Part shown: one piece after another, positions 519 through 15,384 of the stretch
Layout: the number at the start of each line of letters is the position of its first letter
Numbering within the stretch: position 1 is the stretch's first letter
Origin: Naegleria gruberi
Taxonomy: Eukaryota
Strand: one strand, 5' to 3'
DNA length: 15,390 nt
NCBI GenBank assembly: GCA_000004985.1
Contig: GG738966.1
Notes under the pieces: model-generated
Told to the model about the DNA's origin: nothing
The model's input: the letters and a program-made list of their open reading frames with translations, nothing else
The model's database searches: none
Made by a program: the position numbers and the translations under genes

Positions 519-2024
519 TTATTGTTCATTGTTGGTGTAGTACTTTGAATCGTACTCGGCAAAGTATTTCGGAAGAGGCTTCTTACTTGTTGGTATACCC
601 AGAAAGTTACTGTATGCCTTTAACAAAGGGTCTTTGTTTCTGTTCTCAACTGCTGATTCACGTGTACTTTGGAAGTATTTGTTGTATGTGACTAATTGAT
701 CAATAAGGGATGTTTTGAATTCTGGTGGACCTCGGATCTCATTATTAGAAATGATATTCATCTTCAGTAATTCAAAAAATACAAATGCAAATACTTGTCC
801 AGTATCTTTCTGCCTAATTTTGTCCCTTTGTTGAGGAGTTAAGTTAAATGTTTTACCATTTAATTCAATAGAAAAGCTTTCTTCAGTATTGGTGAGTACT
901 GAATGAAATTCTTCTGGAATGCGATCATTTCCAACCAATTTACAAGTTTCCATAATAGCATATTCTGGTTTTACATATTTGGAGTGGGAAACAATATCGT
1001 TAAATATTTGACTGAGATATTTGGATTTTTGATTTGATTCTACAGTTTTAAATTCAAGTCTCATTTTCAAGTCTTCTATTTCCTTGCTTTTCTTGGCTGA
1101 TTCTGAAGCAAAATGGTTTTGTAGACGATTGGATTCTGCTAATTTCTTCTCGAGTTCTGCATTTTCTTTCTTCAAAAAATGATTCTCTGAATTATCTTTT
1201 TCTGTATCCTTGTCATCATTAATTGGAGGAACAGCAAATAGATAATTTGTTGAGGTAACATTTTCCTCCTCTTCATCCATCTCTTCAGGGTCCAAACCAA
1301 GTGGTTTAGCATATAGATTACTCAATGGGAAATCATAATATTTTCCCTCTTGATATTTTTCAATCATTTCAGTTGAGCAACAAGTATCACAATCTATTTT
1401 CCAATGTAAAAATTTACAATTACACTCTTGCTTTGTAAACGAAATCAATTCAACAATTGCAACCTTAAGAGGCTCTGTTTCATGTTTGAGATAATATCTA
1501 TCATGTTCATGCAACTTATTATATGGAACATGAGCTACATTTTGAAGATTATTCACTTTACGAAATTGTAATTCTCTGTCAAAATCAAAAAATGGCTTTA
1601 GCACTTTCTGTATTTGTTCAATTTTTTCAATTAAAAACTGAAACAATTCTTCAACAGGGAGAGAGTAGGAGACAGTGGGAAAGTTTTCAAATTCACTGTT
1701 CTTTCTTTGTAAATGTTTCAAGTATTCATTGTAGAGAATAAGGATGTATACTAATTGATGCTTCTTAAATAATTGTTTGATAATGGATTTATCTGCTCGT
1801 ACTGTGATTTCTTGTTTTCTCAAATTCTCAATAAAGTTTGTCAATTTACCCACTTCAGGAGGTCCCTTGTTAATGGTTGCTGGTAATAATTCAACAGAAT
1901 ACCATTGCATTCCGACTGGCTCAAGTGGTTTCATTCTTAACTCAGACTCATCTTTCTTCTTCTTTGAGGAAGAAGAACTGTTGCTTGCACTTTTACGCTT
2001 TTGGGTTTGTTGACTAGTAGACAT
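519..2024 (-). CDS. Intact 501-aa protein of unknown function. The N-terminus is Ser/Lys-rich and NLS-like. A conserved-looking N-domain is followed by a Cys cluster (CNCKFLHWKIDCDTCC), an acidic stretch, a short coiled-coil and a C-terminal globular-looking domain. The motif GPPE[VF] appears in both the N- and C-terminal domains.
   Basis: This is a 1,506-nt uninterrupted ORF. Its start sits in a yeast-like context (aaaacaaaATGtct). Composition is non-random, with domain-like hydrophobic periodicity flanked by low-complexity linkers. I could not assign a family from memory. Confidence 0.7.
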   Translation of the reverse strand: MSTSQQTQKRKSASNSSSSSKKKKDESELRMKPLEPVGMQWYSVELLPATINKGPPEVGKLTNFIENLRKQEITVRADKSIIKQLFKKHQLVYILILYNEYLKHLQRKNSEFENFPTVSYSLPVEELFQFLIEKIEQIQKVLKPFFDFDRELQFRKVNNLQNVAHVPYNKLHEHDRYYLKHETEPLKVAIVELISFTKQECNCKFLHWKIDCDTCCSTEMIEKYQEGKYYDFPLSNLYAKPLGLDPEEMDEEEENVTSTNYLFAVPPINDDKDTEKDNSENHFLKKENAELEKKLAESNRLQNHFASESAKKSKEIEDLKMRLEFKTVESNQKSKYLSQIFNDIVSHSKYVKPEYAIMETCKLVGNDRIPEEFHSVLTNTEESFSIELNGKTFNLTPQQRDKIRQKDTGQVFAFVFFELLKMNIISNNEIRGPPEFKTSLIDQLVTYNKYFQSTRESAVENRNKDPLLKAYSNFLGIPTSKKPLPKYFAEYDSKYYTNNEQ

Positions 2025-2171
2025 TTTGTTTTTGATTCAGTTGTGGTTATTTTCCAAGTTTGATATATAGATAGTTGTTGTTCAATTTATTTAAAACAGA
2101 TTTGATCTTTTTTTAGATTGTTGTAAAAGAGTTGATTGAACCAGTCATTATTAAAAACTAATCCAAAAAAA
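2025..2171. promoter_or_regulatory. Short (about 147 bp) divergent promoter region between the start codons at 2024 (-) and 2172 (+). It contains the TATA-like element 'tatatagata' at 2064-2073 and an A-tract before 2172.
   Basis: It sits between two divergently oriented ATGs. There is a TATA-like motif, and A-rich -1..-8 contexts at both starts. Confidence 0.35.
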
Positions 2172-3159
2172 ATGGTTAAACATGCTTTTGCAAAATTTGC
2201 AACAGACTTTGAAAGGATTTCTGGTTTAAAATTTGTAAGTAATGGGAACCAATCACCAACCTTTCAAATGCCTGATTCTACTTCAAACACTACCCCTACA
2301 TCCAACAAAAGAAAAAGACAAATCTATGATTCCGAAATTTCTCCTGATGATAACAATTATTCAACATCAATACAATCTAAACAATACCATATTGGAGGTG
2401 ATGATACTTTTTCTTTTGCATTAAATATTGATAATGATTTGAATTCAATAACAACTTTAACATCACCAACACCCCTAGAACCTCATCAAATACAATCAGA
2501 AATATCTCCTATTAATAGTAATTCAACATCACTCAATTATCATCCTTTGAATGTTAAACCTGTTCATTTTACATCTCCAATAATTCAAAATAATAACCTT
2601 CTTTCCAAGCAATTATTTAATACATCATCAATGACAACCTATGAGTCAGTTATGGAAATATTATCATTTATTGTGGAAGCAAAGTTAAACAAAACTCAAT
2701 CACAAAGTTTTTTAAATCTACTTCACAAGTTATTACCTCCTTGTAATCTTCCAAATAAGATTTATGATTTGATGGATATGGTTACAGATATTGAGGATAA
2801 GTACTTCAAAGTTTACTTTTGTGAAGAATGTGAATCAGTTTCAAAACATTCTCAAACAATTTGTAAATGTGGTGAAATATTTGATATTAACAAATTCTTT
2901 TATATGATTGATTTTGATAAGGAATTATCTCTTAAATTTAATACACTTTCTTACTATGAGGCAACCAAATATTATTCTCATGAATATTTGAGAAAGAAGA
3001 AATCTCATGATATTATGCAAGAAATTTATGATGGGTCTACGTATCAAAAACAGATAAGTGCTTTTACAAGAATTCATAATAGTGAAGAAATTAATGTTTC
3101 CTATATTATTAACAATGATGGTGTTGCTGCTCATAAATCTAGTTCCAAATCCCCAGAGG
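2172..3159 (+). CDS. 5' part of a gene truncated by gap 1. About 230 aa of Ser/Thr/Asn-rich low complexity (with a KRKRQ NLS-like motif) lead into a region resembling the N-terminal zinc-finger/DG segment of Tnp2/Transposase_21 (CACTA/EnSpm-like) transposases. The gene is transposase-like or transposase-derived.
   Basis: The ORF is open from 2136, and the better start context is ATG 2172 (aaaaaaaATGg). It carries YFCEECESVSKHSQTICKCGEIF, which matches the Tnp2 pattern C-x2-C-x(about 10)-C-x-C-G. It also carries ...EIYDGSTYQKQISAFTRIHNSEEINVSYIINNDGVAAHKSSSKS, which matches the Tnp2 pattern ...D..W..F.......NV.LGL.TDGFNPF...SSS. The match is motif-level recall, not a database search. Confidence 0.5.
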
Positions 3160-5061
3160 NNNNNNNNNNNNNNNNNNNNNNNNNNNNNNNNNNNNNNNNN
3201 NNNNNNNNNNNNNNNNNNNNNNNNNNNNNNNNNNNNNNNNNNNNNNNNNNNNNNNNNNNNNNNNNNNNNNNNNNNNNNNNNNNNNNNNNNNNNNNNNNNN
3301 NNNNNNNNNNNNNNNNNNNNNNNNNNNNNNNNNNNNNNNNNNNNNNNNNNNNNNNNNNNNNNNNNNNNNNNNNNNNNNNNNNNNNNNNNNNNNNNNNNNN
3401 NNNNNNNNNNNNNNNNNNNNNNNNNNNNNNNNNNNNNNNNNNNNNNNNNNNNNNNNNNNNNNNNNNNNNNNNNNNNNNNNNNNNNNNNNNNNNNNNNNNN
3501 NNNNNNNNNNNNNNNNNNNNNNNNNNNNNNNNNNNNNNNNNNNNNNNNNNNNNNNNNNNNNNNNNNNNNNNNNNNNNNNNNNNNNNNNNNNNNNNNNNNN
3601 NNNNNNNNNNNNNNNNNNNNNNNNNNNNNNNNNNNNNNNNNNNNNNNNNNNNNNNNNNNNNNNNNNNNNNNNNNNNNNNNNNNNNNNNNNNNNNNNNNNN
3701 NNNNNNNNNNNNNNNNNNNNNNNNNNNNNNNNNNNNNNNNNNNNNNNNNNNNNNNNNNNNNNNNNNNNNNNNNNNNNNNNNNNNNNNNNNNNNNNNNNNN
3801 NNNNNNNNNNNNNNNNNNNNNNNNNNNNNNNNNNNNNNNNNNNNNNNNNNNNNNNNNNNNNNNNNNNNNNNNNNNNNNNNNNNNNNNNNNNNNNNNNNNN
3901 NNNNNNNNNNNNNNNNNNNNNNNNNNNNNNNNNNNNNNNNNNNNNNNNNNNNNNNNNNNNNNNNNNNNNNNNNNNNNNNNNNNNNNNNNNNNNNNNNNNN
4001 NNNNNNNNNNNNNNNNNNNNNNNNNNNNNNNNNNNNNNNNNNNNNNNNNNNNNNNNNNNNNNNNNNNNNNNNNNNNNNNNNNNNNNNNNNNNNNNNNNNN
4101 NNNNNNNNNNNNNNNNNNNNNNNNNNNNNNNNNNNNNNNNNNNNNNNNNNNNNNNNNNNNNNNNNNNNNNNNNNNNNNNNNNNNNNNNNNNNNNNNNNNN
4201 NNNNNNNNNNNNNNNNNNNNNNNNNNNNNNNNNNNNNNNNNNNNNNNNNNNNNNNNNNNNNNNNNNNNNNNNNNNNNNNNNNNNNNNNNNNNNNNNNNNN
4301 NNNNNNNNNNNNNNNNNNNNNNNNNNNNNNNNNNNNNNNNNNNNNNNNNNNNNNNNNNNNNNNNNNNNNNNNNNNNNNNNNNNNNNNNNNNNNNNNNNNN
4401 NNNNNNNNNNNNNNNNNNNNNNNNNNNNNNNNNNNNNNNNNNNNNNNNNNNNNNNNNNNNNNNNNNNNNNNNNNNNNNNNNNNNNNNNNNNNNNNNNNNN
4501 NNNNNNNNNNNNNNNNNNNNNNNNNNNNNNNNNNNNNNNNNNNNNNNNNNNNNNNNNNNNNNNNNNNNNNNNNNNNNNNNNNNNNNNNNNNNNNNNNNNN
4601 NNNNNNNNNNNNNNNNNNNNNNNNNNNNNNNNNNNNNNNNNNNNNNNNNNNNNNNNNNNNNNNNNNNNNNNNNNNNNNNNNNNNNNNNNNNNNNNNNNNN
4701 NNNNNNNNNNNNNNNNNNNNNNNNNNNNNNNNNNNNNNNNNNNNNNNNNNNNNNNNNNNNNNNNNNNNNNNNNNNNNNNNNNNNNNNNNNNNNNNNNNNN
4801 NNNNNNNNNNNNNNNNNNNNNNNNNNNNNNNNNNNNNNNNNNNNNNNNNNNNNNNNNNNNNNNNNNNNNNNNNNNNNNNNNNNNNNNNNNNNNNNNNNNN
4901 NNNNNNNNNNNNNNNNNNNNNNNNNNNNNNNNNNNNNNNNNNNNNNNNNNNNNNNNNNNNNNNNNNNNNNNNNNNNNNNNNNNNNNNNNNNNNNNNNNNN
5001 NNNNNNNNNNNNNNNNNNNNNNNNNNNNNNNNNNNNNNNNNNNNNNNNNNNNNNNNNNNNN
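3160..5061. other. Assembly gap 1 (1,902 N).
   Basis: Run of n characters. It hides the 3' part of the transposase-like gene and the 5' part of MAD1. Confidence 0.99.
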
Positions 5062-7744
5062 TCATCAACAAGTCTTAATGAATCTGTCAAGAATGTTCAA
5101 GGAACAAATGATGAAAATTTCGAAAATTATGTGCATGAAACTTTCGGAACAAATTCAAATAAGAATAATCAATCTATTGTGAATAGAAAACCAGCAATTA
5201 GTGTATTCGAGGATGAAAATATTGAAAAATCTACCATTGAGGAACAATATTTATTTGGTGCTGAGGATGAAGAACCATCGATGGAAACTAATGTAAATAG
5301 AAACTTTGAGAAAAGACCTTCTCAACAATCCAACAATCAATTTTCTTCTCCTTTGAAAAAGAGAAAATTAGCTTCACAACAATTAATTTCTAATGCTGGT
5401 CATACGGAAGTTGAGGATGAGGAAGAAGATTTGGCCAATTGTTCACTTGTCATTTCACCACCTCCTTTTGATGAAGAGGAAACATCCTCTGCTGCCAATA
5501 ACATGCTCTTTGGAAATGATGAAGAAAATGTGAGTGGACCAATATTGGAAGCAGGTCTCTACACTGGACGATCCAGGGATAGAAAGAGTAGAATTAAAAG
5601 TAGTTACTATGAGCCAGGATCACCACTCAATACTGGCCTTGAGAATAATCCTTCAATGATCATTTCGAGTTCACCACTCTTGAAATATACAGTACCATCG
5701 ACGGAGAGTGCCAGCAACAACAACATGCTAAATGATAGTATTACCAATAGAAGCTCTATTCTCAATGAGAGTCTCAGGGAGAGGGACGACATTATCGATC
5801 AATTGAATAATGAAGCTGAGGGAGAGAGAAGAAAACTCAAAGAATACAAGCTTCTCATCGAAAAACTTCAATCAGAGAATGCTCACCTCAAGCAACAAAA
5901 CTCTTCAATCAAAAAGAAGAATGAGGAAATACTGATAGAAACAGAAAAGGAAAATAACACTAGGGAACTTGAAATTCAATCTTTGAAAGAGAAAATTGCC
6001 GAACAACAAACCACTATTAACTTACAAAATCTTTCCAAGACTCAAAAAGAATCTAAATTTACAAGAAATTGAAAGTAAAATATCTGGAATCAACAAGACT
6101 GTAGAGACTTTGAAAAGTGATATTGTACAAAAGGACATTACCATAGAAACTCTCAATAGTCAAATTGAATCAATGAACAAACAATTGGAGGAAGCATCAA
6201 CTACCAATTCTGAACTAATGACCGTCTATCACTCTCAAAAACATGAATTTAATTTATTAAGCCATGAATATGAAATACTAACATTCAAGACTTCACAATA
6301 TGATTCAAAGATTCAAGAACTTGACCAATTACAAGATGAAATCAAGACACTCAAAGCAGAGCTAAATGAAAGAAATGAGGACAAGAAAAAGATACGAATC
6401 TTGGAAGCGGAATTGCAAAAGGCCAGTGAATCTCTCCAATCACAAGAAGTTCTCAAGGAAGCCATCAAGGACTTTGAATCTGAGTTGACCAAGTTGGAAG
6501 TTCTTCGAATTGAAAATAGTTCACTCGAGTCCAAGTTGTACAATACTGAATCACTTTTAAAGAGCTGGGAAAGTGCCTTCCCTAATAATACTCCATCGGA
6601 TGTAAACTACAATATCAAGTTACAAGCCAAGAAAATAACTCGCCTCGAAGAAACCATTCAAGAAGTGAATCAAGAAAAGTTTGACATTGCCAAGCATGTG
6701 GAACGTTTAACTGTGGAGTTGGAATCAAGGGAGACAGAATGTGCCGAGCTTCGAAATGAAAACAAGCAACTCGAAGAGAAACTGGCCAGCACTGAAGTAA
6801 AGCTCTTCGCTGCCAAGAACCAATTGGAGAGCTCTATGAAATTTGCTCACATCAACGACAAGGAAGAGGCTATGAATGCTGCTGCCGATGAGGAAACTAA
6901 GGAAAAGATAGGCCATCACATGAGTAGAATAGCTGCCCTTGAAAAGATCATTGAGGAGAAGGATGTAAATACTCGTGAACTATTTGAAAGATTGGATATT
7001 TTGCAAAAACAAATAATTGACAAACAGACTCTTATCGAAAACTTTGAACATGAAGTGGAGAAGGTTAATGCTCAAAAGTTGGAAGTTCAAACCAAATCAG
7101 ATGAATTACAGGTACGAGTTGAAAAATTGGAAAAGAACAGAGACGCTCTCGAATTGGAAATTGCAAACTATGAAAAGAGACTAGGAAAGGGAGAATACAA
7201 TAAGGAGAAATTCAAAATTCTTCACATGAAAATCAACCCAGAAATTGAGGCCAAAAAATCCAGTGACAATGACATTGAACGATTAAAGACAGAAAATAAG
7301 CTCCTCACCGAAGAAATTACCTCCCTCAAAGAGCAATTACAAATCTCCTCCAACGATAATGCCTCCAGCTCAATTAACAATCAACGAGAAATTGAAAAGC
7401 TCAAAGAAGAAAATGCAGATGCCCAACGCAGAATTACCAAGCTCAAAGAAGTTTTCCAAAAGAGAATTAACGAATTTAGAAAATCAATCTATCTCTTATT
7501 TGGTTTCAGAGTTGATGTCATTGAAAATAATCGATTCAGATTGAGCAGTATGTATGCAGAATCTCCAGAAGATTATCTCATCTTTGAAAGTGATGGAAAT
7601 GCCATGAAACTCTTAAACTCTGAATTTGCTTGTTCACTAGAGGAAAAATCCATGAGATTTTTAAAGAATTTCAGATCCATTCCTGGATTTTTATGTTCCA
7701 TTACTTTGGATTTATTCAACAAGCAAACCGTTTTCACCCAATAA
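5062..7744 (+). CDS. MAD1: Spindle assembly checkpoint protein MAD1. The 5' end is missing in gap 1. Frame 1 (5062-6072) and frame 2 (5996-7744) are two halves of one gene separated by a single-nucleotide frame disruption between about 6030 and 6072. The stop is TAA at 7742-7744.
   Basis: The C-terminal domain RINEFRKSIYLLFGFRVDVIENNRFRLSSMYAESPEDYLIFESDGN...SIPGFLCSITLDLFNKQTVF aligns with the Mad1 C-terminal/RLK region (compare S. cerevisiae ...FIDVVNSLLGFKLEF...QLPCFLATITLRLWEQRQ and human ...SIPAFLSSLTLELFSRQTVA). It is preceded by about 580 aa of heptad-rich coiled coil that continues seamlessly across the frame junction. Frame 1 has no stop from 5062 to 6072. Confidence 0.85.
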
Positions 7745-7821: not shown

Positions 7822-8993
7822 ATGAATATTACACAACCTAACTTTATCACCACGACATTGCAACAATTGTTGGAAATGGGATTTACGCACGAACAAGCCA
7901 CACAAATGATCATTGTTCTCGAACAAGAGAAAACAAAGCAATTGGAAATTAATTCAAAGAAGAGAAACATGGATGAAAATTCAGAATTTGATTCATTCGG
8001 AAAAAAGAGAAAACAAGATGAAGAATTGTTTCCTGATGAAATTATAGTTGAATTGTATCATATCTTTCTAATTTTGAAGGATTCCGATTAATGTTTGTCA
8101 GTAAACAATTTATGAAAGCTTGCCGATTAATTAGAAAATGGTTGATTACTTCGGATTGCACTACCGAATTATTAAGAATGTTTTGTGAATCGTCATTTGC
8201 TGAACAAATTCACTCTTTGGTGATTGATGTTCCAATCACTTGGGAATTATTCAATCAAATCAAACTTAATTTTACAAATTTGAAAGAGTTGAATCTGTAC
8301 GAAGTAGCATTTCTCGATTTTTCAAATTATTTTGAAAGCAACCATTTAGAATCTTTAATAGTTCGAAACTGTAATAACATTAATCTCAATTCATTGCATT
8401 TATTCAATTTACAACATATAGAATGTCCCCTAAAGTCATCCAGTGGTGTCAGTAATATCATTCATTCGAATACTTTCAGCTTAAAAAGTATTACACTGCA
8501 TGGGAATGGAAATGTGATTAAGGAGGCTCACTTGTTTAAAAATCTTCCAGCATTGGAATATCTTAAACTTGTCAGATTTAACATTCCAGTTTCACAATTT
8601 AAGGAAATATTGAATTGTAAAGGTTTAAAATCACTACATTTACAATTCATTACTAACACGAGTGCCATTCTTTTGGACCAAAAACATTCACAGTTGTTCA
8701 ATTTGCCAACATTAGAAAAATTAGAAAGTTATCGAGTAGATCTTGACCTTATGCAGATTCTTATCCAATCAATGATTGCTCCTCTATTGAAATATTTATC
8801 AATTGGGGTAAATGGTGTCTTTAATTTTACACTTTCAAAAGCCTTTAGAGAAAATACATCTCTATCAAATATTGAAAACTTGTCTATTGAGAATCAGATA
8901 GAAAATATGGAAATAATTGAAAATATTTGTGAAAAAATATCCAAGTTACCTTTAAACAAATTTGCCTTTTCTGGAAATTCACTGTGTTTCTCA
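7822..8993 (+). CDS. F-box/leucine-rich-repeat protein, an SCF substrate-adaptor-like protein, with a UBA-like N-terminus. It is a single gene interrupted by a -1 frame change at 8088-8091 (ORFs 7822-8091 and 8091-gap). The 3' end is lost in gap 2.
   Basis: The N-terminus LQQLLEMGFTHEQATQMIIVL matches the UBA pattern ..L.eMGF..e.a..AL. The F-box consensus LPdEIL..If..L...dL....VsK.W is reconstituted only by joining the end of ORF1 (FPDEIIVELYHIFLILKDSD) to the start of ORF2 (LMFVSKQFMKACRLIRKWL). Downstream there are at least 8 LRR-like L..L.L..C..I.D repeats (NLKELNLYEV, LESLIVRNCNNINL, LKSITLHGNGNVI, LEYLKLVRFNI, LKSLHLQFITN and others). Confidence 0.6.
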
Positions 8994-11900
8994 NNNNNNN
9001 NNNNNNNNNNNNNNNNNNNNNNNNNNNNNNNNNNNNNNNNNNNNNNNNNNNNNNNNNNNNNNNNNNNNNNNNNNNNNNNNNNNNNNNNNNNNNNNNNNNN
9101 NNNNNNNNNNNNNNNNNNNNNNNNNNNNNNNNNNNNNNNNNNNNNNNNNNNNNNNNNNNNNNNNNNNNNNNNNNNNNNNNNNNNNNNNNNNNNNNNNNNN
9201 NNNNNNNNNNNNNNNNNNNNNNNNNNNNNNNNNNNNNNNNNNNNNNNNNNNNNNNNNNNNNNNNNNNNNNNNNNNNNNNNNNNNNNNNNNNNNNNNNNNN
9301 NNNNNNNNNNNNNNNNNNNNNNNNNNNNNNNNNNNNNNNNNNNNNNNNNNNNNNNNNNNNNNNNNNNNNNNNNNNNNNNNNNNNNNNNNNNNNNNNNNNN
9401 NNNNNNNNNNNNNNNNNNNNNNNNNNNNNNNNNNNNNNNNNNNNNNNNNNNNNNNNNNNNNNNNNNNNNNNNNNNNNNNNNNNNNNNNNNNNNNNNNNNN
9501 NNNNNNNNNNNNNNNNNNNNNNNNNNNNNNNNNNNNNNNNNNNNNNNNNNNNNNNNNNNNNNNNNNNNNNNNNNNNNNNNNNNNNNNNNNNNNNNNNNNN
9601 NNNNNNNNNNNNNNNNNNNNNNNNNNNNNNNNNNNNNNNNNNNNNNNNNNNNNNNNNNNNNNNNNNNNNNNNNNNNNNNNNNNNNNNNNNNNNNNNNNNN
9701 NNNNNNNNNNNNNNNNNNNNNNNNNNNNNNNNNNNNNNNNNNNNNNNNNNNNNNNNNNNNNNNNNNNNNNNNNNNNNNNNNNNNNNNNNNNNNNNNNNNN
9801 NNNNNNNNNNNNNNNNNNNNNNNNNNNNNNNNNNNNNNNNNNNNNNNNNNNNNNNNNNNNNNNNNNNNNNNNNNNNNNNNNNNNNNNNNNNNNNNNNNNN
9901 NNNNNNNNNNNNNNNNNNNNNNNNNNNNNNNNNNNNNNNNNNNNNNNNNNNNNNNNNNNNNNNNNNNNNNNNNNNNNNNNNNNNNNNNNNNNNNNNNNNN
10001 NNNNNNNNNNNNNNNNNNNNNNNNNNNNNNNNNNNNNNNNNNNNNNNNNNNNNNNNNNNNNNNNNNNNNNNNNNNNNNNNNNNNNNNNNNNNNNNNNNNN
10101 NNNNNNNNNNNNNNNNNNNNNNNNNNNNNNNNNNNNNNNNNNNNNNNNNNNNNNNNNNNNNNNNNNNNNNNNNNNNNNNNNNNNNNNNNNNNNNNNNNNN
10201 NNNNNNNNNNNNNNNNNNNNNNNNNNNNNNNNNNNNNNNNNNNNNNNNNNNNNNNNNNNNNNNNNNNNNNNNNNNNNNNNNNNNNNNNNNNNNNNNNNNN
10301 NNNNNNNNNNNNNNNNNNNNNNNNNNNNNNNNNNNNNNNNNNNNNNNNNNNNNNNNNNNNNNNNNNNNNNNNNNNNNNNNNNNNNNNNNNNNNNNNNNNN
10401 NNNNNNNNNNNNNNNNNNNNNNNNNNNNNNNNNNNNNNNNNNNNNNNNNNNNNNNNNNNNNNNNNNNNNNNNNNNNNNNNNNNNNNNNNNNNNNNNNNNN
10501 NNNNNNNNNNNNNNNNNNNNNNNNNNNNNNNNNNNNNNNNNNNNNNNNNNNNNNNNNNNNNNNNNNNNNNNNNNNNNNNNNNNNNNNNNNNNNNNNNNNN
10601 NNNNNNNNNNNNNNNNNNNNNNNNNNNNNNNNNNNNNNNNNNNNNNNNNNNNNNNNNNNNNNNNNNNNNNNNNNNNNNNNNNNNNNNNNNNNNNNNNNNN
10701 NNNNNNNNNNNNNNNNNNNNNNNNNNNNNNNNNNNNNNNNNNNNNNNNNNNNNNNNNNNNNNNNNNNNNNNNNNNNNNNNNNNNNNNNNNNNNNNNNNNN
10801 NNNNNNNNNNNNNNNNNNNNNNNNNNNNNNNNNNNNNNNNNNNNNNNNNNNNNNNNNNNNNNNNNNNNNNNNNNNNNNNNNNNNNNNNNNNNNNNNNNNN
10901 NNNNNNNNNNNNNNNNNNNNNNNNNNNNNNNNNNNNNNNNNNNNNNNNNNNNNNNNNNNNNNNNNNNNNNNNNNNNNNNNNNNNNNNNNNNNNNNNNNNN
11001 NNNNNNNNNNNNNNNNNNNNNNNNNNNNNNNNNNNNNNNNNNNNNNNNNNNNNNNNNNNNNNNNNNNNNNNNNNNNNNNNNNNNNNNNNNNNNNNNNNNN
11101 NNNNNNNNNNNNNNNNNNNNNNNNNNNNNNNNNNNNNNNNNNNNNNNNNNNNNNNNNNNNNNNNNNNNNNNNNNNNNNNNNNNNNNNNNNNNNNNNNNNN
11201 NNNNNNNNNNNNNNNNNNNNNNNNNNNNNNNNNNNNNNNNNNNNNNNNNNNNNNNNNNNNNNNNNNNNNNNNNNNNNNNNNNNNNNNNNNNNNNNNNNNN
11301 NNNNNNNNNNNNNNNNNNNNNNNNNNNNNNNNNNNNNNNNNNNNNNNNNNNNNNNNNNNNNNNNNNNNNNNNNNNNNNNNNNNNNNNNNNNNNNNNNNNN
11401 NNNNNNNNNNNNNNNNNNNNNNNNNNNNNNNNNNNNNNNNNNNNNNNNNNNNNNNNNNNNNNNNNNNNNNNNNNNNNNNNNNNNNNNNNNNNNNNNNNNN
11501 NNNNNNNNNNNNNNNNNNNNNNNNNNNNNNNNNNNNNNNNNNNNNNNNNNNNNNNNNNNNNNNNNNNNNNNNNNNNNNNNNNNNNNNNNNNNNNNNNNNN
11601 NNNNNNNNNNNNNNNNNNNNNNNNNNNNNNNNNNNNNNNNNNNNNNNNNNNNNNNNNNNNNNNNNNNNNNNNNNNNNNNNNNNNNNNNNNNNNNNNNNNN
11701 NNNNNNNNNNNNNNNNNNNNNNNNNNNNNNNNNNNNNNNNNNNNNNNNNNNNNNNNNNNNNNNNNNNNNNNNNNNNNNNNNNNNNNNNNNNNNNNNNNNN
11801 NNNNNNNNNNNNNNNNNNNNNNNNNNNNNNNNNNNNNNNNNNNNNNNNNNNNNNNNNNNNNNNNNNNNNNNNNNNNNNNNNNNNNNNNNNNNNNNNNNNN

Positions 11901-13498
11901 NNNNNNNNNNNNNNNNNNNNNNNNNNNNNNNNNNNNNNNNNNNNNNNNNNNNNNNNNNNNNNNNNNNNNNNNNNNNNNNNNNNNNNNNNNNNNNNNNNNN
12001 NNNNNNNNNNNNNNNNNNNNNNNNNNNNNNNNNNNNNNNNNNNNNNNNNNNNNNNNNNNNNNNNNNNNNNNNNNNNNNNNNNNNNNNNNNNNNNNNNNNN
12101 NNNNNNNNNNNNNNNNNNNNNNNNNNNNNNNNNNNNNNNNNNNNNNNNNNNNNNNNNNNNNNNNNNNNNNNNNNNNNNNNNNNNNNNNNNNNNNNNNNNN
12201 NNNNNNNNNNNNNNNNNNNNNNNNNNNNNNNNNNNNNNNNNNNNNNNNNNNNNNNNNNNNNNNNNNNNNNNNNNNNNNNNNNNNNNNNNNNNNNNNNNNN
12301 NNNNNNNNNNNNNNNNNNNNNNNNNNNNNNNNNNNNNNNNNNNNNNNNNNNNNNNNNNNNNNNNNNNNNNNNNNNNNNNNNNNNNNNNNNNNNNNNNNNN
12401 NNNNNNNNNNNNNNNNNNNNNNNNNNNNNNNNNNNNNNNNNNNNNNNNNNNNNNNNNNNNNNNNNNNNNNNNNNNNNNNNNNNNNNNNNNNNNNNNNNNN
12501 NNNNNNNNNNNNNNNNNNNNNNNNNNNNNNNNNNNNNNNNNNNNNNNNNNNNNNNNNNNNNNNNNNNNNNNNNNNNNNNNNNNNNNNNNNNNNNNNNNNN
12601 NNNNNNNNNNNNNNNNNNNNNNNNNNNNNNNNNNNNNNNNNNNNNNNNNNNNNNNNNNNNNNNNNNNNNNNNNNNNNNNNNNNNNNNNNNNNNNNNNNNN
12701 NNNNNNNNNNNNNNNNNNNNNNNNNNNNNNNNNNNNNNNNNNNNNNNNNNNNNNNNNNNNNNNNNNNNNNNNNNNNNNNNNNNNNNNNNNNNNNNNNNNN
12801 NNNNNNNNNNNNNNNNNNNNNNNNNNNNNNNNNNNNNNNNNNNNNNNNNNNNNNNNNNNNNNNNNNNNNNNNNNNNNNNNNNNNNNNNNNNNNNNNNNNN
12901 NNNNNNNNNNNNNNNNNNNNNNNNNNNNNNNNNNNNNNNNNNNNNNNNNNNNNNNNNNNNNNNNNNNNNNNNNNNNNNNNNNNNNNNNNNNNNNNNNNNN
13001 NNNNNNNNNNNNNNNNNNNNNNNNNNNNNNNNNNNNNNNNNNNNNNNNNNNNNNNNNNNNNNNNNNNNNNNNNNNNNNNNNNNNNNNNNNNNNNNNNNNN
13101 NNNNNNNNNNNNNNNNNNNNNNNNNNNNNNNNNNNNNNNNNNNNNNNNNNNNNNNNNNNNNNNNNNNNNNNNNNNNNNNNNNNNNNNNNNNNNNNNNNNN
13201 NNNNNNNNNNNNNNNNNNNNNNNNNNNNNNNNNNNNNNNNNNNNNNNNNNNNNNNNNNNNNNNNNNNNNNNNNNNNNNNNNNNNNNNNNNNNNNNNNNNN
13301 NNNNNNNNNNNNNNNNNNNNNNNNNNNNNNNNNNNNNNNNNNNNNNNNNNNNNNNNNNNNNNNNNNNNNNNNNNNNNNNNNNNNNNNNNNNNNNNNNNNN
13401 NNNNNNNNNNNNNNNNNNNNNNNNNNNNNNNNNNNNNNNNNNNNNNNNNNNNNNNNNNNNNNNNNNNNNNNNNNNNNNNNNNNNNNNNNNNNNNNNNN
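8994..13498. other. Assembly gap 2 (4,505 N).
   Basis: Run of n characters. It hides the 3' part of the F-box/LRR gene and the 3' part of the Rho-family GTPase gene. Confidence 0.99.
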
Positions 13499-14415: not shown

Positions 14416-15384
14416 ATGGTGTTCCTGCAGTTGATGAAGGAAGCAATGTNNNNNNNNNNNNNNNNNNNNNNNNNNNNNNNNNNNNNNNNNNNNNNNNNNT
14501 GCTCAAATTCAAGCAAAGCACAACACTTTCAAAATTCAAAGAGAGAATCTATACCCACTAATAGTAAGGATTCAAATTCGCCGAAATTAACAACATCCTT
14601 ATCGAATGAAACATTCTATTCAGAGAACCGCAGTGAAATAAGTCCTCCTGATCCATTTCAGTCTTCACAAAAGGGAGTTCCCTCCAAACTGTCCTCAACC
14701 AATTCTAATCAACAAGAAAAAGATTCTTCACCACTTAGTAAGGAAACTTTTACTCCAGTAGTTGCTTTTAGTCCAATTCTTACTGATATTGAAGATGATT
14801 CAAAGGCAATTTACATGCATCCATATCATGGAAGCTTGCCTCCCCTTAGTCCAAGCAATTCAACATGCTCTTCAAAGACCTCTTCAAGCAATTGCAGCAC
14901 TCTTTCATCTCCTAAAGAGAAGATCACATCCCCATCTCATTCATCATCGTACATTACTGCATCTGCTACATACTCATCTTCACCATCACCATCATCAACA
15001 ACATCAGGAGTTGCAACTAGCTCTTCTCCAACTACACTCATCCAACCATCGTCAACAGCATCTGTTAATGCATCTACATCTAACACAACACCAGAAACAA
15101 TAACATCCACCCCAATAATCTCAAAAGAAACACCCAAACCAACCATTGAGATCAGTAAAGTGTCGAATACTGCTCCGACTACATCTTCGCCAATTTCCAA
15201 AGATAAATTAAAGAGAGCTAGACCTCTTTCTGCAACCAAAAATCCACTGGTTCAATCTCTGACATTGGAAAAATTTAAAGACGATTTAGCTATTGGAAGA
15301 AAATCGAAATCAAATATCATTTCAGATAATTCAGTCAAAGTACCTTACAGCTCTTCACTAACTAGATCAGGGAAGAACCATTAA
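14416..15384 (+). CDS. Ser/Thr/Pro/Asn-rich low-complexity protein, possibly a regulatory or cell-surface protein. The candidate start ATG is at 14416 (aaaaaaaatATGg). The body is open in frame 1 from 14500 to TAA at 15382-15384 and is interrupted by the 50-N gap 14450-14499, so true length and phase across the gap are unknown.
   Basis: A continuous 295-codon open frame follows the gap, with strong Ser/Thr bias (SSSNCSTLSSPKEKITSPSHSSSYITASATYSSSPSPSSTTSG...). The first in-frame ATG after the gap is far downstream (about 14816), so the start must lie in or before the gap. Confidence 0.5.
   Translation: MVFLQLMKEAMXXXXXXXXXXXXXXXXXCSNSSKAQHFQNSKRESIPTNSKDSNSPKLTTSLSNETFYSENRSEISPPDPFQSSQKGVPSKLSSTNSNQQEKDSSPLSKETFTPVVAFSPILTDIEDDSKAIYMHPYHGSLPPLSPSNSTCSSKTSSSNCSTLSSPKEKITSPSHSSSYITASATYSSSPSPSSTTSGVATSSSPTTLIQPSSTASVNASTSNTTPETITSTPIISKETPKPTIEISKVSNTAPTTSSPISKDKLKRARPLSATKNPLVQSLTLEKFKDDLAIGRKSKSNIISDNSVKVPYSSSLTRSGKNH
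14450..14499. other. Assembly gap 3, exactly 50 N, a conventional placeholder for a gap of unknown size.
   Basis: Run of 50 n characters. This is not a multiple of 3, so the apparent in-frame continuity of the flanking ORF in the six-frame track is coincidental. Confidence 0.95.

What the first reader, a model, noticed from the sequence alone, without database searches (positions are those of the whole stretch)
2172..3159. Transposase-like (Tnp2/CACTA-type) zinc-finger gene wedged between conserved genes and cut off by an assembly gap
After a long Ser/Thr/Asn-rich N-terminus the protein carries a CxxC-x(about 10)-CxCG cluster (FCEECESVSKHSQTICKCGEIF). About 60 residues later it carries NVSYIINNDGVAAHKSSSKS. 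This follows the order and spacing of the conserved N-terminal core of plant and fungal Tnp2/Transposase_21 (EnSpm/CACTA; compare Plavaka and KDZ in fungi) transposases (aCPndC...CPvCG ... NVRLGLSTDGFNPFGNMSSS). Such elements are not a standard component of budding-yeast genomes, so this could be either an unrecognised DNA-transposon family or a domesticated transposase-derived nuclear protein. It shares a tight 147-bp divergent promoter with a host gene, which argues for domestication rather than a recent insertion. The assembly also breaks inside it, which is typical of multi-copy repeats.
Basis: partly seen in the sequence, partly recalled or inferred. Interest (0 to 1): 0.6.

Follow-up and report, generated by a model that had tools for sequence, protein, structure and literature searches.

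The report
Truncated CACTA-type transposase gene in Naegleria
The ORF is the first third of a CACTA/Mirage/Chapaev-type ("Tnp2") DNA-transposase gene, cut off by a scaffold gap, in the amoeba Naegleria gruberi and not in a yeast; this is an ordinary kind of mobile-element gene whose public annotation wrongly fuses it to the neighbouring MAD1 checkpoint gene.

Summary
An uninterrupted ORF runs from the ATG at 2172 to base 3159 (329 codons), then meets a 1,902-N run. Both quoted motifs are present.

The family call is right. The fragment has no Pfam hit of its own. An exhaustive phmmer search found 88 relatives (best non-self E = 1e-15). Of the 87 non-self hits, 52 carry Pfam Transposase_21 (Tnp2) and 46 carry DUF1258. 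A profile of 22 full-length relatives matches the ORF at 118 bits, over profile positions 51-257 of 810. The ORF keeps the four zinc-cluster cysteines, the (D/E)IYDG motif and the first catalytic Asp (NNDG). The second Asp, C(2)C, H(3)H and Glu would lie in the gap.

The context is wrong. The window is a whole 15,390-bp scaffold of Naegleria gruberi. CMC-EnSpm repeats are already listed for the genus, so the yeast-based novelty argument fails.

Transposon or domesticated gene is unresolved; I lean towards a low-copy transposon or relic:
- GC3 is 0.18, against 0.25-0.375 for the other ORFs.
- No counterpart lies beside MAD1 in N. fowleri or Willaertia.
- Some relatives are multi-copy.

The public model XP_002668720.1 is a chimera, spliced across the gap onto MAD1. 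Interest is low.

The parts
2025..2171 (.). 147-bp AT-rich spacer (23% GC) between the divergent upstream ORF and the transposase ATG. No CACTA-type terminus or inverted-repeat arm was detectable.
   Evidence: sequence, GC, no CACTR motif. (no inverted repeat with the sequence after the gap; 0 matches against 1.4 expected by chance).
2172..3159 (+). Open reading frame of 329 codons: the 5' third of a CMC-superfamily (Tnp2/Transposase_21-like) DDE transposase gene, cut off by the scaffold gap.
   Evidence: translation. (88 phmmer hits). (relatives carry PF02992 and PF06869). (profile of 22 full-length relatives: 117.9 bits, profile positions 51-257 of 810).
2172..2588 (+). Low-complexity N-terminus rich in Ser, Thr and Asn (aa 1-139), with a KRKR motif (2307-2318) that could be a nuclear localisation signal (inferred). 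It is not conserved in relatives.
   Evidence: composition, motif position. (conserved alignment with relatives starts at about aa 143-150).
2634..2816 (+). Conserved helical region (consensus ...S.L.IL.F...H.LT...L..LL.LI....P..N..P.S.Y.F.K.F), predicted as three helices with pLDDT above 90.
   Evidence: alignment A1. (AlphaFold model: helices 17-30, 35-48 and 58-71 of the 190-aa segment, block pLDDT 94-97).
2820..2870 (+). Cys cluster C217-x2-C220-x10-C231-x-C233, a putative zinc-binding motif. The four cysteines are invariant or at least 90% conserved in relatives.
   Evidence: C present in 21-22 of 22 full-length relatives. (coordinates). Zinc binding itself is inferred.
3021..3035 (+). 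EIYDG motif (family consensus D-I-Y-D-G-x2-Y), which lies inside the part of relatives covered by Pfam Transposase_21.
   Evidence: (in P0009, Transposase_21 covers 243-390, and the DIYDG motif is at 240-244).
3111..3122 (+). NNDG (family consensus N-T-D-G): Asp316 is the presumed first catalytic Asp of the DDE triad.
   Evidence: D and G present in 22 of 22 full-length relatives. The catalytic role is inferred from the CMC motif order D..D..C(2)C..H(3-4)H..E described in PMC12730594.
3160..5061 (.). Scaffold gap of 1,902 N in the public assembly. It should hold the missing ~553 profile positions (about 1.66 kb: second Asp, C(2)C, H(3)H, Glu, C-terminal region), any 3' terminus of the element, and the 5' end of MAD1.
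   Evidence: N run. (deposited model spliced across it). (length of the missing part). (the MAD1 frame is open at 5062, with no Met before the conserved SVFEDE motif).
5062..7744 (+). Neighbouring MAD1 spindle-checkpoint gene. It is not part of the transposase, although the deposited model joins its N-terminal part to the transposase fragment.
   Evidence: Pfam MAD, 5.4e-57. (61% identity to N. fowleri MAD1). (the N-terminal part is also conserved with N. fowleri). (sequence of P0001).
519..2024 (-). Divergent upstream ORF of 501 aa with unknown function. Its GC3 is like the other genes of the scaffold. Whether it is a host gene or a second ORF of the element is untested.
   Evidence: no family, PDB or exact-gene record; structure model unusable. 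(GC3 0.279). (absent from the MAD1 loci of N. fowleri and W. magna).

Best explanation
Positions 2172-3159 encode the N-terminal third of a DDE transposase of the CMC (CACTA/EnSpm-Mirage-Chapaev; Pfam Transposase_21 'Tnp2') superfamily, in the heterolobosean amoeba Naegleria gruberi.

Shown:
- The ORF is homologous to a family whose full-length members (about 740-920 aa) carry the complete CMC signature D...D...C(2)C...H(3)H...E.
- The ORF retains every conserved residue of that family up to and including the first catalytic Asp: a helical region, a C-x2-C...C-x-C cluster, (D/E)IYDG and N-x-D-G.
- The sequence then runs into a genuine scaffold gap.

Inferred:
- The rest of the catalytic domain lies in the 1.9-kb gap.
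- The gene belongs to a low-copy cut-and-paste DNA transposon, or a relic of one. In such an element the transposase enters the nucleus, recognises the element's ends through its N-terminal helical and zinc region, and excises and reinserts the element with the RNase-H-like DDE centre, making short target-site duplications.
- The gene sits between an unrelated upstream ORF and MAD1, not as a conserved host gene.

The confidence of 0.62 is for the whole statement, including 'transposon or relic rather than domesticated gene'. The homology alone I put at about 0.93.
For: Homology:
- phmmer of aa 140-329 against 1.84 billion representatives gave 88 hits at E <= 1e-3. The best non-self hit was E = 1e-15 at 32% identity over 180 aa.
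- 52 of the 87 non-self hits match PF02992 Transposase_21, and 46 match PF06869 DUF1258.
- the window keeps all invariant and at least 90% conserved columns.
- 22 full-length relatives share D272, D358, C377-x2-C380, H593-x3-H597 and E617 (P0009 numbering). This matches the CMC definition quoted in PMC12730594.
- a profile built without the window scores the ORF at 117.9 bits (E = 3.5e-36). The match covers profile positions 51-257 of 810 and ends exactly at the gap.

Organism and known occurrence:
- the window is a Naegleria gruberi scaffold.
- CMC-EnSpm repeats are listed for N. lovaniensis.

Leaning towards a transposon:
- GC3 is 0.18, against 0.25-0.375 for the five other ORFs of the scaffold.
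- no Tnp2-like ORF lies within 10 kb of MAD1 in N. fowleri or Willaertia magna.
- some relatives are multi-copy. The 90% cluster of P0004 has 9 members on at least 5 contigs.
Against: - The fragment has no Pfam hit of its own. The family assignment is transitive.
- No terminal inverted repeat, CACTA-like terminus or target-site duplication was found.
- Only 147 bp separate the ATG from the next ORF, which leaves little room for a transposon end.
- No second copy is visible. The 90% cluster of the deposited protein has one member on one contig. No other hit below E = 1e-15 exists in the 15-billion-protein collection. None of the 25 hits looked up is from Naegleria.
- About 1.66 kb of coding sequence is missing, and the MAD1 5' end also lies in the gap. 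The 1.9-kb gap estimate barely accommodates a full-length gene.
- The lack of synteny is weak evidence, because none of the other window genes is conserved beside MAD1 in the two comparison species either.
Confidence: 0.62

Rival explanations
1. A domesticated, transposase-derived host gene. On this reading it is a single-copy nuclear protein that has kept the DNA-binding and zinc region, and perhaps the DDE fold, of a CMC transposase. It has lost its transposon ends and is expressed from a short promoter shared with the upstream gene.
For: - The frame is intact over 329 codons, and all conserved residues are retained.
- No second copy is detectable among predicted proteins.
- No terminal repeat lies in the 147-bp spacer.
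- The gene sits in a gene-dense setting.
Against: - No counterpart lies next to MAD1 in N. fowleri or W. magna.
- GC3 is 0.18, well below every other ORF on the scaffold. That is unlike a long-resident host gene.
- An intact frame and intact catalytic residues are equally expected for a young transposon copy.
- Short intergenic spacers are usual in the compact Naegleria genome (my own knowledge, not tested here).
- The upstream ORF is not shown to be a host gene.
- The 3' end, where the second terminal repeat would be, is hidden in the gap.
Confidence: 0.2
2. A dead, truncated relic. On this reading only the 5' part of an old transposase gene survives here, and the gap does not hide the catalytic domain.
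For: - The gap estimate (1,902 bp) must also hold the MAD1 5' end and promoter. That leaves barely enough room for the missing ~1.66 kb.
- The last residues before the gap (KSSSKS-PE) depart from the family consensus KSS..S.WP.
- No terminal repeat was found.
Against: - There is no stop or frameshift in 987 bp of AT-rich sequence, where stops arise easily.
- All ten conserved positions are intact.
- Gap sizes in draft scaffolds are only estimates.
- Sequence next to a contig end is often of low quality, which could explain the odd last residues.
Confidence: 0.13
3. The ORF is a genuine N-terminal domain of the MAD1 protein, as the deposited model XP_002668720.1 implies. A weaker form of this rival is that it is an ordinary zinc-finger protein unrelated to transposases.
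For: The deposited 646-aa model joins the ORF to the MAD1 N-terminal region by a GT..AG intron.
Against: - The 'intron' is the N run itself.
- MAD1 of Willaertia magna (795 aa) and the N. fowleri MAD1 locus contain nothing similar to the ORF.
- The ORF matches the transposase profile up to its very last residues and stops mid-domain.
- 52 of 87 relatives are Transposase_21 proteins.
Confidence: 0.03

Closest known systems
CMC superfamily of DDE transposases (CACTA/EnSpm, Mirage, Chapaev); Pfam PF02992 Transposase_21 ('Tnp2') and PF06869 DUF1258
   Same: - The order of conserved elements is the same: a Cys cluster upstream of the catalytic domain, then DIYDG, then N-T-D-G-x3-F/K-S-S-x2-S-x-W-P carrying the first Asp.
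- Full-length relatives of the window ORF continue with the second Asp, C(2)C, H(3)H and Glu.
- Those relatives match PF02992 and PF06869.
   Different: - Only the first third is available here.
- The fragment does not reach any Pfam threshold.
- Relatives score close to the gathering cut-offs of both PF02992 (28-50 bits against 28.6) and PF06869 (25-54 bits against 33.1). The lineage is therefore about equally far from plant Tnp2 and nematode DUF1258 models.
- Assignment to EnSpm, Mirage or Chapaev was not possible without Repbase references.
- No terminal repeats or target-site duplications were seen.
CMC-EnSpm repeats annotated in Naegleria lovaniensis (RepeatModeler/RepeatMasker table in PMC6125883)
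   Same: Same genus and same superfamily label. This shows that such elements are an expected, minor component of Naegleria genomes (38 copies, 0.23% of the genome).
   Different: No sequences from that annotation were available, so I could not test whether the N. gruberi gene belongs to the same family. No Naegleria protein appeared among the 25 hits whose source I looked up.
Metazoan uncharacterised Tnp2-like proteins (for example XP_053391217.1 Mercenaria mercenaria, XP_044003651.1 Aphidius gifuensis, XP_033114195.1 Anneissia japonica, OXA47476.1 Folsomia candida)
   Same: These are the closest named relatives. They share 24-32% identity over about 180 aa and the same conserved columns.
   Different: The identity is low and the host kingdom is different. 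The Naegleria protein has a longer low-complexity N-terminus. The divergence is too great to say anything about horizontal transfer.
   Same: They share the general layout of a Cys-rich region ahead of a DDE domain. Plavaka is placed in the wider CMCT clade by PMC12730594.
   Different: Only 2 of 87 relatives give a weak PF18759 Plavaka hit, and none gives a KDZ hit. These are not the nearest models.

Membership tests
CMC (CACTA/EnSpm-Mirage-Chapaev) DDE transposase superfamily | Direct significant match of the protein to a family model (PF02992 Transposase_21 or related) | tested here: not met
   the 329-aa fragment has no hit to PF02992, PF13963, PF13960, PF06869 or PF18759, even at E <= 10. 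The fragment holds only about the first 45 of the 213 profile positions of PF02992.
CMC (CACTA/EnSpm-Mirage-Chapaev) DDE transposase superfamily | Significant homology to proteins that are themselves members (transitive test) | tested here: met
   - 88 phmmer hits, with the best non-self at 1e-15.
- 52 of 87 match PF02992 (best 2.9e-17) and 46 of 87 match PF06869.
- a profile of 22 full-length members scores the ORF at 117.9 bits.
CMC (CACTA/EnSpm-Mirage-Chapaev) DDE transposase superfamily | First catalytic Asp in its conserved context | tested here: met
   Asp316 in NNDG aligns with the invariant D of N-T-D-G (22 of 22 full-length relatives).
CMC (CACTA/EnSpm-Mirage-Chapaev) DDE transposase superfamily | Second Asp, C(2)C and H(3-4)H motifs, and catalytic Glu (definition cited in PMC12730594) | not testable with these tools
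   These positions fall in the N run at 3160-5061. They are present in the full-length relatives, but they cannot be read for this gene.
CMC (CACTA/EnSpm-Mirage-Chapaev) DDE transposase superfamily | Element termini 5'-CA...TG-3' forming inverted repeats, with 2-5 bp target-site duplications | tested here: inconclusive
   no inverted repeat between 1991-2200 and 5062-5500, and no CACTR in the spacer. The 3' end of any element would lie in the gap, so absence is not shown.
Active or recently active transposon family | Several near-identical copies in the same genome | not testable with these tools
   - The N. gruberi genome could not be searched. The genome-contig collection holds only bacteria and archaea, and (metagenome contigs) found nothing.
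- Indirect evidence: the 90% cluster has 1 member on 1 contig, and no other hit below 1e-15 was found.
Domesticated transposase-derived gene | Orthologue at the same genomic position in related species | tested here: not met
   no Tnp2-like ORF lies within 10 kb of MAD1 in N. fowleri (L001) or Willaertia magna (L002). The best profile score was 13.5 bits, on an ORF about 5 kb downstream of MAD1. Caveat: the other window genes are not conserved there either.
Domesticated transposase-derived gene | Purifying selection across species, and loss of transposon ends | not testable with these tools
   No orthologue was found to compare, and the 3' end is hidden in the gap.
KDZ / Plavaka fungal transposases | Match to the Plavaka (PF18759) or KDZ models | tested here: not met
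   no hit for the fragment; only 2 of 87 relatives give a weak Plavaka hit (best 2.2e-4), and none gives a KDZ hit.

The most novel reading that the evidence does not exclude
The gene could be a single-copy, domesticated CMC transposase derivative in Naegleria gruberi: a host protein that re-uses the transposase's helical and zinc DNA-binding module, and possibly its nuclease. It would be a rare documented transposase domestication in Discoba.

A milder novel reading is that it represents a previously uncharacterised CMC lineage in Heterolobosea, roughly equidistant from plant Tnp2 and nematode DUF1258 models.
Probability: 0.2. Interest if true: 0.4.

Novelty: new member of a known kind. Interest (0 to 1): 0.2.

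Why it matters
- It gives a family assignment to a Naegleria gruberi 'predicted protein' (NAEGRDRAFT_76358). It adds a protein-level example of a CMC/Tnp2-type transposase in Heterolobosea, a group where DDE transposons are sparse.
- More practically, it exposes an annotation artefact. XP_002668720.1 is a chimera of a transposase N-terminus and the N-terminal part of MAD1, joined across a scaffold gap, and MAD1 itself is split.
- Anyone surveying spindle-checkpoint or kinetochore genes, or transposase domestication, in Naegleria could be misled by that model.
- It does not open a new biological question unless the gene proves to be single-copy and conserved, that is, domesticated.

Tried and rejected
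- **Word-indexed protein search.** The whole fragment found nothing. With profile A1 it found only 2 proteins. It seems to hide N. gruberi proteins and has low reach, so it could not be used to count paralogues.
- **Family and structure libraries.** Pfam, NCBIfam and PDB sequence searches of the fragment gave no meaningful hit.
- **Collection scans.** A genome-contig scan with the fragment was pointless in hindsight, because that collection holds only bacteria and archaea. The metagenome-contig scan found no relative.
- **Exact-protein look-ups.** The upstream ORF and P0001 are not on record.
- **Structure of aa 140-329.** The AlphaFold model had pLDDT 77, but Foldseek against the PDB gave no match with E < 0.3. 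The afdb50 library was unavailable.
- **Structure of the upstream ORF.** The single-sequence model had pLDDT 36 and was unusable.
- **Repeat searches.** Only chance-level short repeats were found.
- **Bacterial promoter/terminator scan.** It is irrelevant for a eukaryote.
- **tRNA and Rfam scans.** Nothing was found in the window.
- **Rejected ideas.** Budding-yeast origin. The N run as an artificial mask (the public gene model is spliced across it). The ORF as part of MAD1.

Full report
**Observation.**
The window has three N runs: 3160-5061 (1,902 N), 8994-13498 (4,505 N) and 14450-14499 (50 N). An ORF starts at the ATG at 2172 and stays open for 329 codons, up to the last base before the first N run. 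The first 139 residues are rich in S, T and N and hold a KRKR motif. The spacer to the divergent upstream ORF (519-2024, minus strand, 501 aa) is 147 bp at 23% GC.

**Where the sequence comes from.**
An exhaustive phmmer search with aa 140-329 against 1.84 billion cluster representatives returned one near-identical protein, P0001 (646 aa, 99% identity). It is EFC35976.1 / XP_002668720.1, 'predicted protein NAEGRDRAFT_76358 [Naegleria gruberi]', on a contig of exactly 15,390 bp. The window is therefore a whole small scaffold of the N. gruberi draft genome, not a budding-yeast sequence.

P0001 reads ...NNDGVAAHKS|RTNDENFENY.... The deposited model leaves the ORF at about 3140 through a GT donor. 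It re-enters after the N run through an AG acceptor at about 5097, continuing into the N-terminal part of the neighbouring gene. This shows two things:
- The N run is part of the public assembly, so it is a true scaffold gap.
- The deposited protein is a chimera.

The neighbour is MAD1:
- ORF 5996-7744 matches Pfam MAD at 5.4e-57.
- It is 61% identical to N. fowleri MAD1.
- The stretch 5062-6072 is also conserved with the N. fowleri MAD1 locus.

**What the ORF is.**
The fragment matches no Pfam, NCBIfam or PDB entry on its own. The word-indexed protein search also found nothing. The exhaustive search, however, found 88 proteins at E <= 1e-3. The best non-self hit was E = 1e-15, 32% identical over 180 residues.

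Scanning the 87 non-self hits against Pfam gave the following:
- 52 match PF02992 Transposase_21 ('Tnp2'; best 2.9e-17).
- 46 match PF06869 DUF1258.
- 2 match PF13960 DUF4218.
- 2 match PF18759 Plavaka weakly.
- Those without a hit are mostly short fragments.

In an alignment of the window segment with 27 relatives, these columns are invariant or at least 90% conserved: C-x2-C, C-x-C, a Phe, (D/E)-I-Y-D-G-x2-Y and D-G. The window has the family residue at each, apart from the conservative Glu at the first position of EIYDG.

Twenty-two full-length relatives (about 640-920 aa) continue with W-P, N-E-L-P, a second invariant Asp (D-x-P-A), C-x2-C, H-x3-H and F-x2-E-x2-N-G. That is the D...D...C(2)C...H(3-4)H...E signature that defines the CMC lineage (EnSpm/CACTA, Mirage, Chapaev), as summarised in PMC12730594.

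A profile built from those 22 proteins, without the window sequence, scores the window ORF at 117.9 bits (E = 3.5e-36 in the six-frame translation of the window). The match covers profile positions 51-257 of 810 and ends exactly at the gap. Nothing else in the window matches. Plavaka and KDZ are not the nearest models.

**What is missing.**
About 553 profile positions, roughly 1.66 kb, would follow. From the first Asp to the catalytic Glu is about 345 residues in relatives. The gap is estimated at 1,902 bp. It must also contain the start of MAD1, because the MAD1 frame is already open at 5062 with no Met before the conserved SVFEDE motif. A full-length gene fits only just. Either the gap estimate is short or the copy is truncated. 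This cannot be decided here.

**Transposon, relic or domesticated gene.**

Against domestication:
- I fetched the MAD1 loci of N. fowleri (L001) and Willaertia magna (L002) with 10-kb flanks. Neither tblastn, phmmer nor the family profile finds a Tnp2-like ORF there.
- The other window genes (upstream ORF, LRR-like ORF, Ser-rich ORF) are not there either, so the neighbourhood as a whole is not syntenic and the test is weak.
- Codon composition sets the ORF apart. Its GC3 is 0.18, against 0.28 (upstream ORF), 0.29 and 0.375 (MAD1 parts), 0.27 and 0.25.
- Relatives behave as repeats in their genomes. The 90% cluster of P0004 has nine members on at least five contigs.
- CMC-EnSpm repeats have been tabulated for N. 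lovaniensis at 38 copies and 0.23% of the genome (PMC6125883).

For domestication, or at least against an active family:
- No second copy is visible. The 90% cluster of P0001 has one member.
- No other protein in the collection scores better than 1e-15.
- None of 25 hits whose source I looked up is from Naegleria. The named ones are all animals: Aphidius, Mercenaria, Anneissia and Folsomia, and Mytilus among the profile-search hits.
- No inverted repeat or CACTA-like terminus is found in the 147-bp spacer or after the gap.

The N. gruberi genome itself could not be searched with the tools provided, so copy number is unknown.

The 147-bp spacer is not good evidence for domestication. The upstream ORF has no detectable homologue, domain or usable structure model, so it is not shown to be a host gene. 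Naegleria genomes are also compact (my own knowledge).

The gap is not good evidence for a repeat either, because 42% of this scaffold is N, in three gaps.

I lean towards a low-copy transposon or its relic (about 0.6-0.75 when the relic case is included). Domestication stands at about 0.2.

**Mechanism.**
By homology, the product would be a cut-and-paste DDE transposase with these parts:
- a disordered N-terminus with a basic KRKR patch (possible nuclear import signal; inferred);
- a three-helix region predicted with high confidence (pLDDT 94-97);
- a four-Cys cluster (probably zinc-binding, and probably involved in recognising element ends; inferred);
- the RNase-H-like catalytic domain, of which only the first Asp is visible.

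No solved structure resembles the N-terminal module.

**Comparison and novelty.**
This is a new member of a known kind. It is a CMC/Tnp2-type transposase gene in a genus where that superfamily has already been flagged by repeat annotation. Its relatives score near the thresholds of both the plant Tnp2 and nematode DUF1258 models, so the lineage is divergent. I could not place it within EnSpm, Mirage or Chapaev without reference sets.

The most useful by-product is the correction of the chimeric gene model that joins the transposase fragment to MAD1. Interest is low (0.2). It would rise to about 0.4 if gap closure and genome-wide searches showed a single-copy, conserved, expressed gene.

Noticed in passing
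window 2172-3150 joined to 5097-6072: The deposited protein XP_002668720.1 / EFC35976.1 (NAEGRDRAFT_76358, 646 aa) is a chimera. The transposase fragment is spliced by a GT..AG 'intron', which is simply the 1,902-N scaffold gap, onto the N-terminal region of MAD1.
   Followed up: yes
window 5996-6072: The MAD1 coding sequence changes frame here. Frame 2 (5062-6072) ends at a TGA at 6070-6072, while frame 3 is open from 5996 to 7744. Both parts are conserved with N. fowleri MAD1. There is no plausible intron (no GT before 6075), so this looks like a 1-nt indel near the A5 run at about 6040. It could be a draft-sequence error or a real frameshift, and it splits MAD1 into two gene models.
   Followed up: partly
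L001 8158-10705 (N. fowleri VFQX01000040.1): The N. fowleri MAD1 region is also broken. Similarity to the N. gruberi protein jumps between frames at least three times between 9049 and 9413, and two separate gene models are called (610 aa and 408 aa). The cause was not examined (introns or assembly indel errors are both possible).
   Followed up: no
window 519-2024 (minus strand): A 501-aa ORF diverges from the transposase gene. It has no Pfam, NCBIfam or PDB match, and no exact gene record. It contains a Cys-rich patch (CNCKFLHWKIDCDTCC), an acidic stretch and a coiled-coil-like segment. Host gene or second ORF of a transposon is unknown.
   Followed up: partly
window 8091-8993, then gap 8994-13498: An ORF of at least 301 aa with a leucine-rich, repeat-like sequence (LxxLxLxxN patterns) is cut off by the larger 4,505-N gap. 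It has no Pfam or NCBIfam hit and no counterpart in the N. fowleri or Willaertia MAD1 loci.
   Followed up: partly
window 14416-15384 (with the 50-N gap at 14450-14499): A Ser/Thr/Pro-rich ORF runs to the end of the scaffold. It is low-complexity and has no family match.
   Followed up: no
window 5188-5210 and L001 6966-6995 / about 8040: A short acidic motif (I/F)(S/T)VF(E/D)D(E/S) recurs near the N-terminus of MAD1 in N. gruberi (ISVFEDEN). It occurs twice in the N. fowleri locus (MFTVFEDEEN at the start of the 610-aa model, and LFTVFDDSEAN further on). This may be a conserved N-terminal MAD1 motif in Naegleria.
   Followed up: no
window 3135-3159: The last residues before the gap (KSSSKS-PE) depart from the family consensus KSS..S.WP. 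Either this copy differs here or the sequence at the contig end is of low quality.
   Followed up: no
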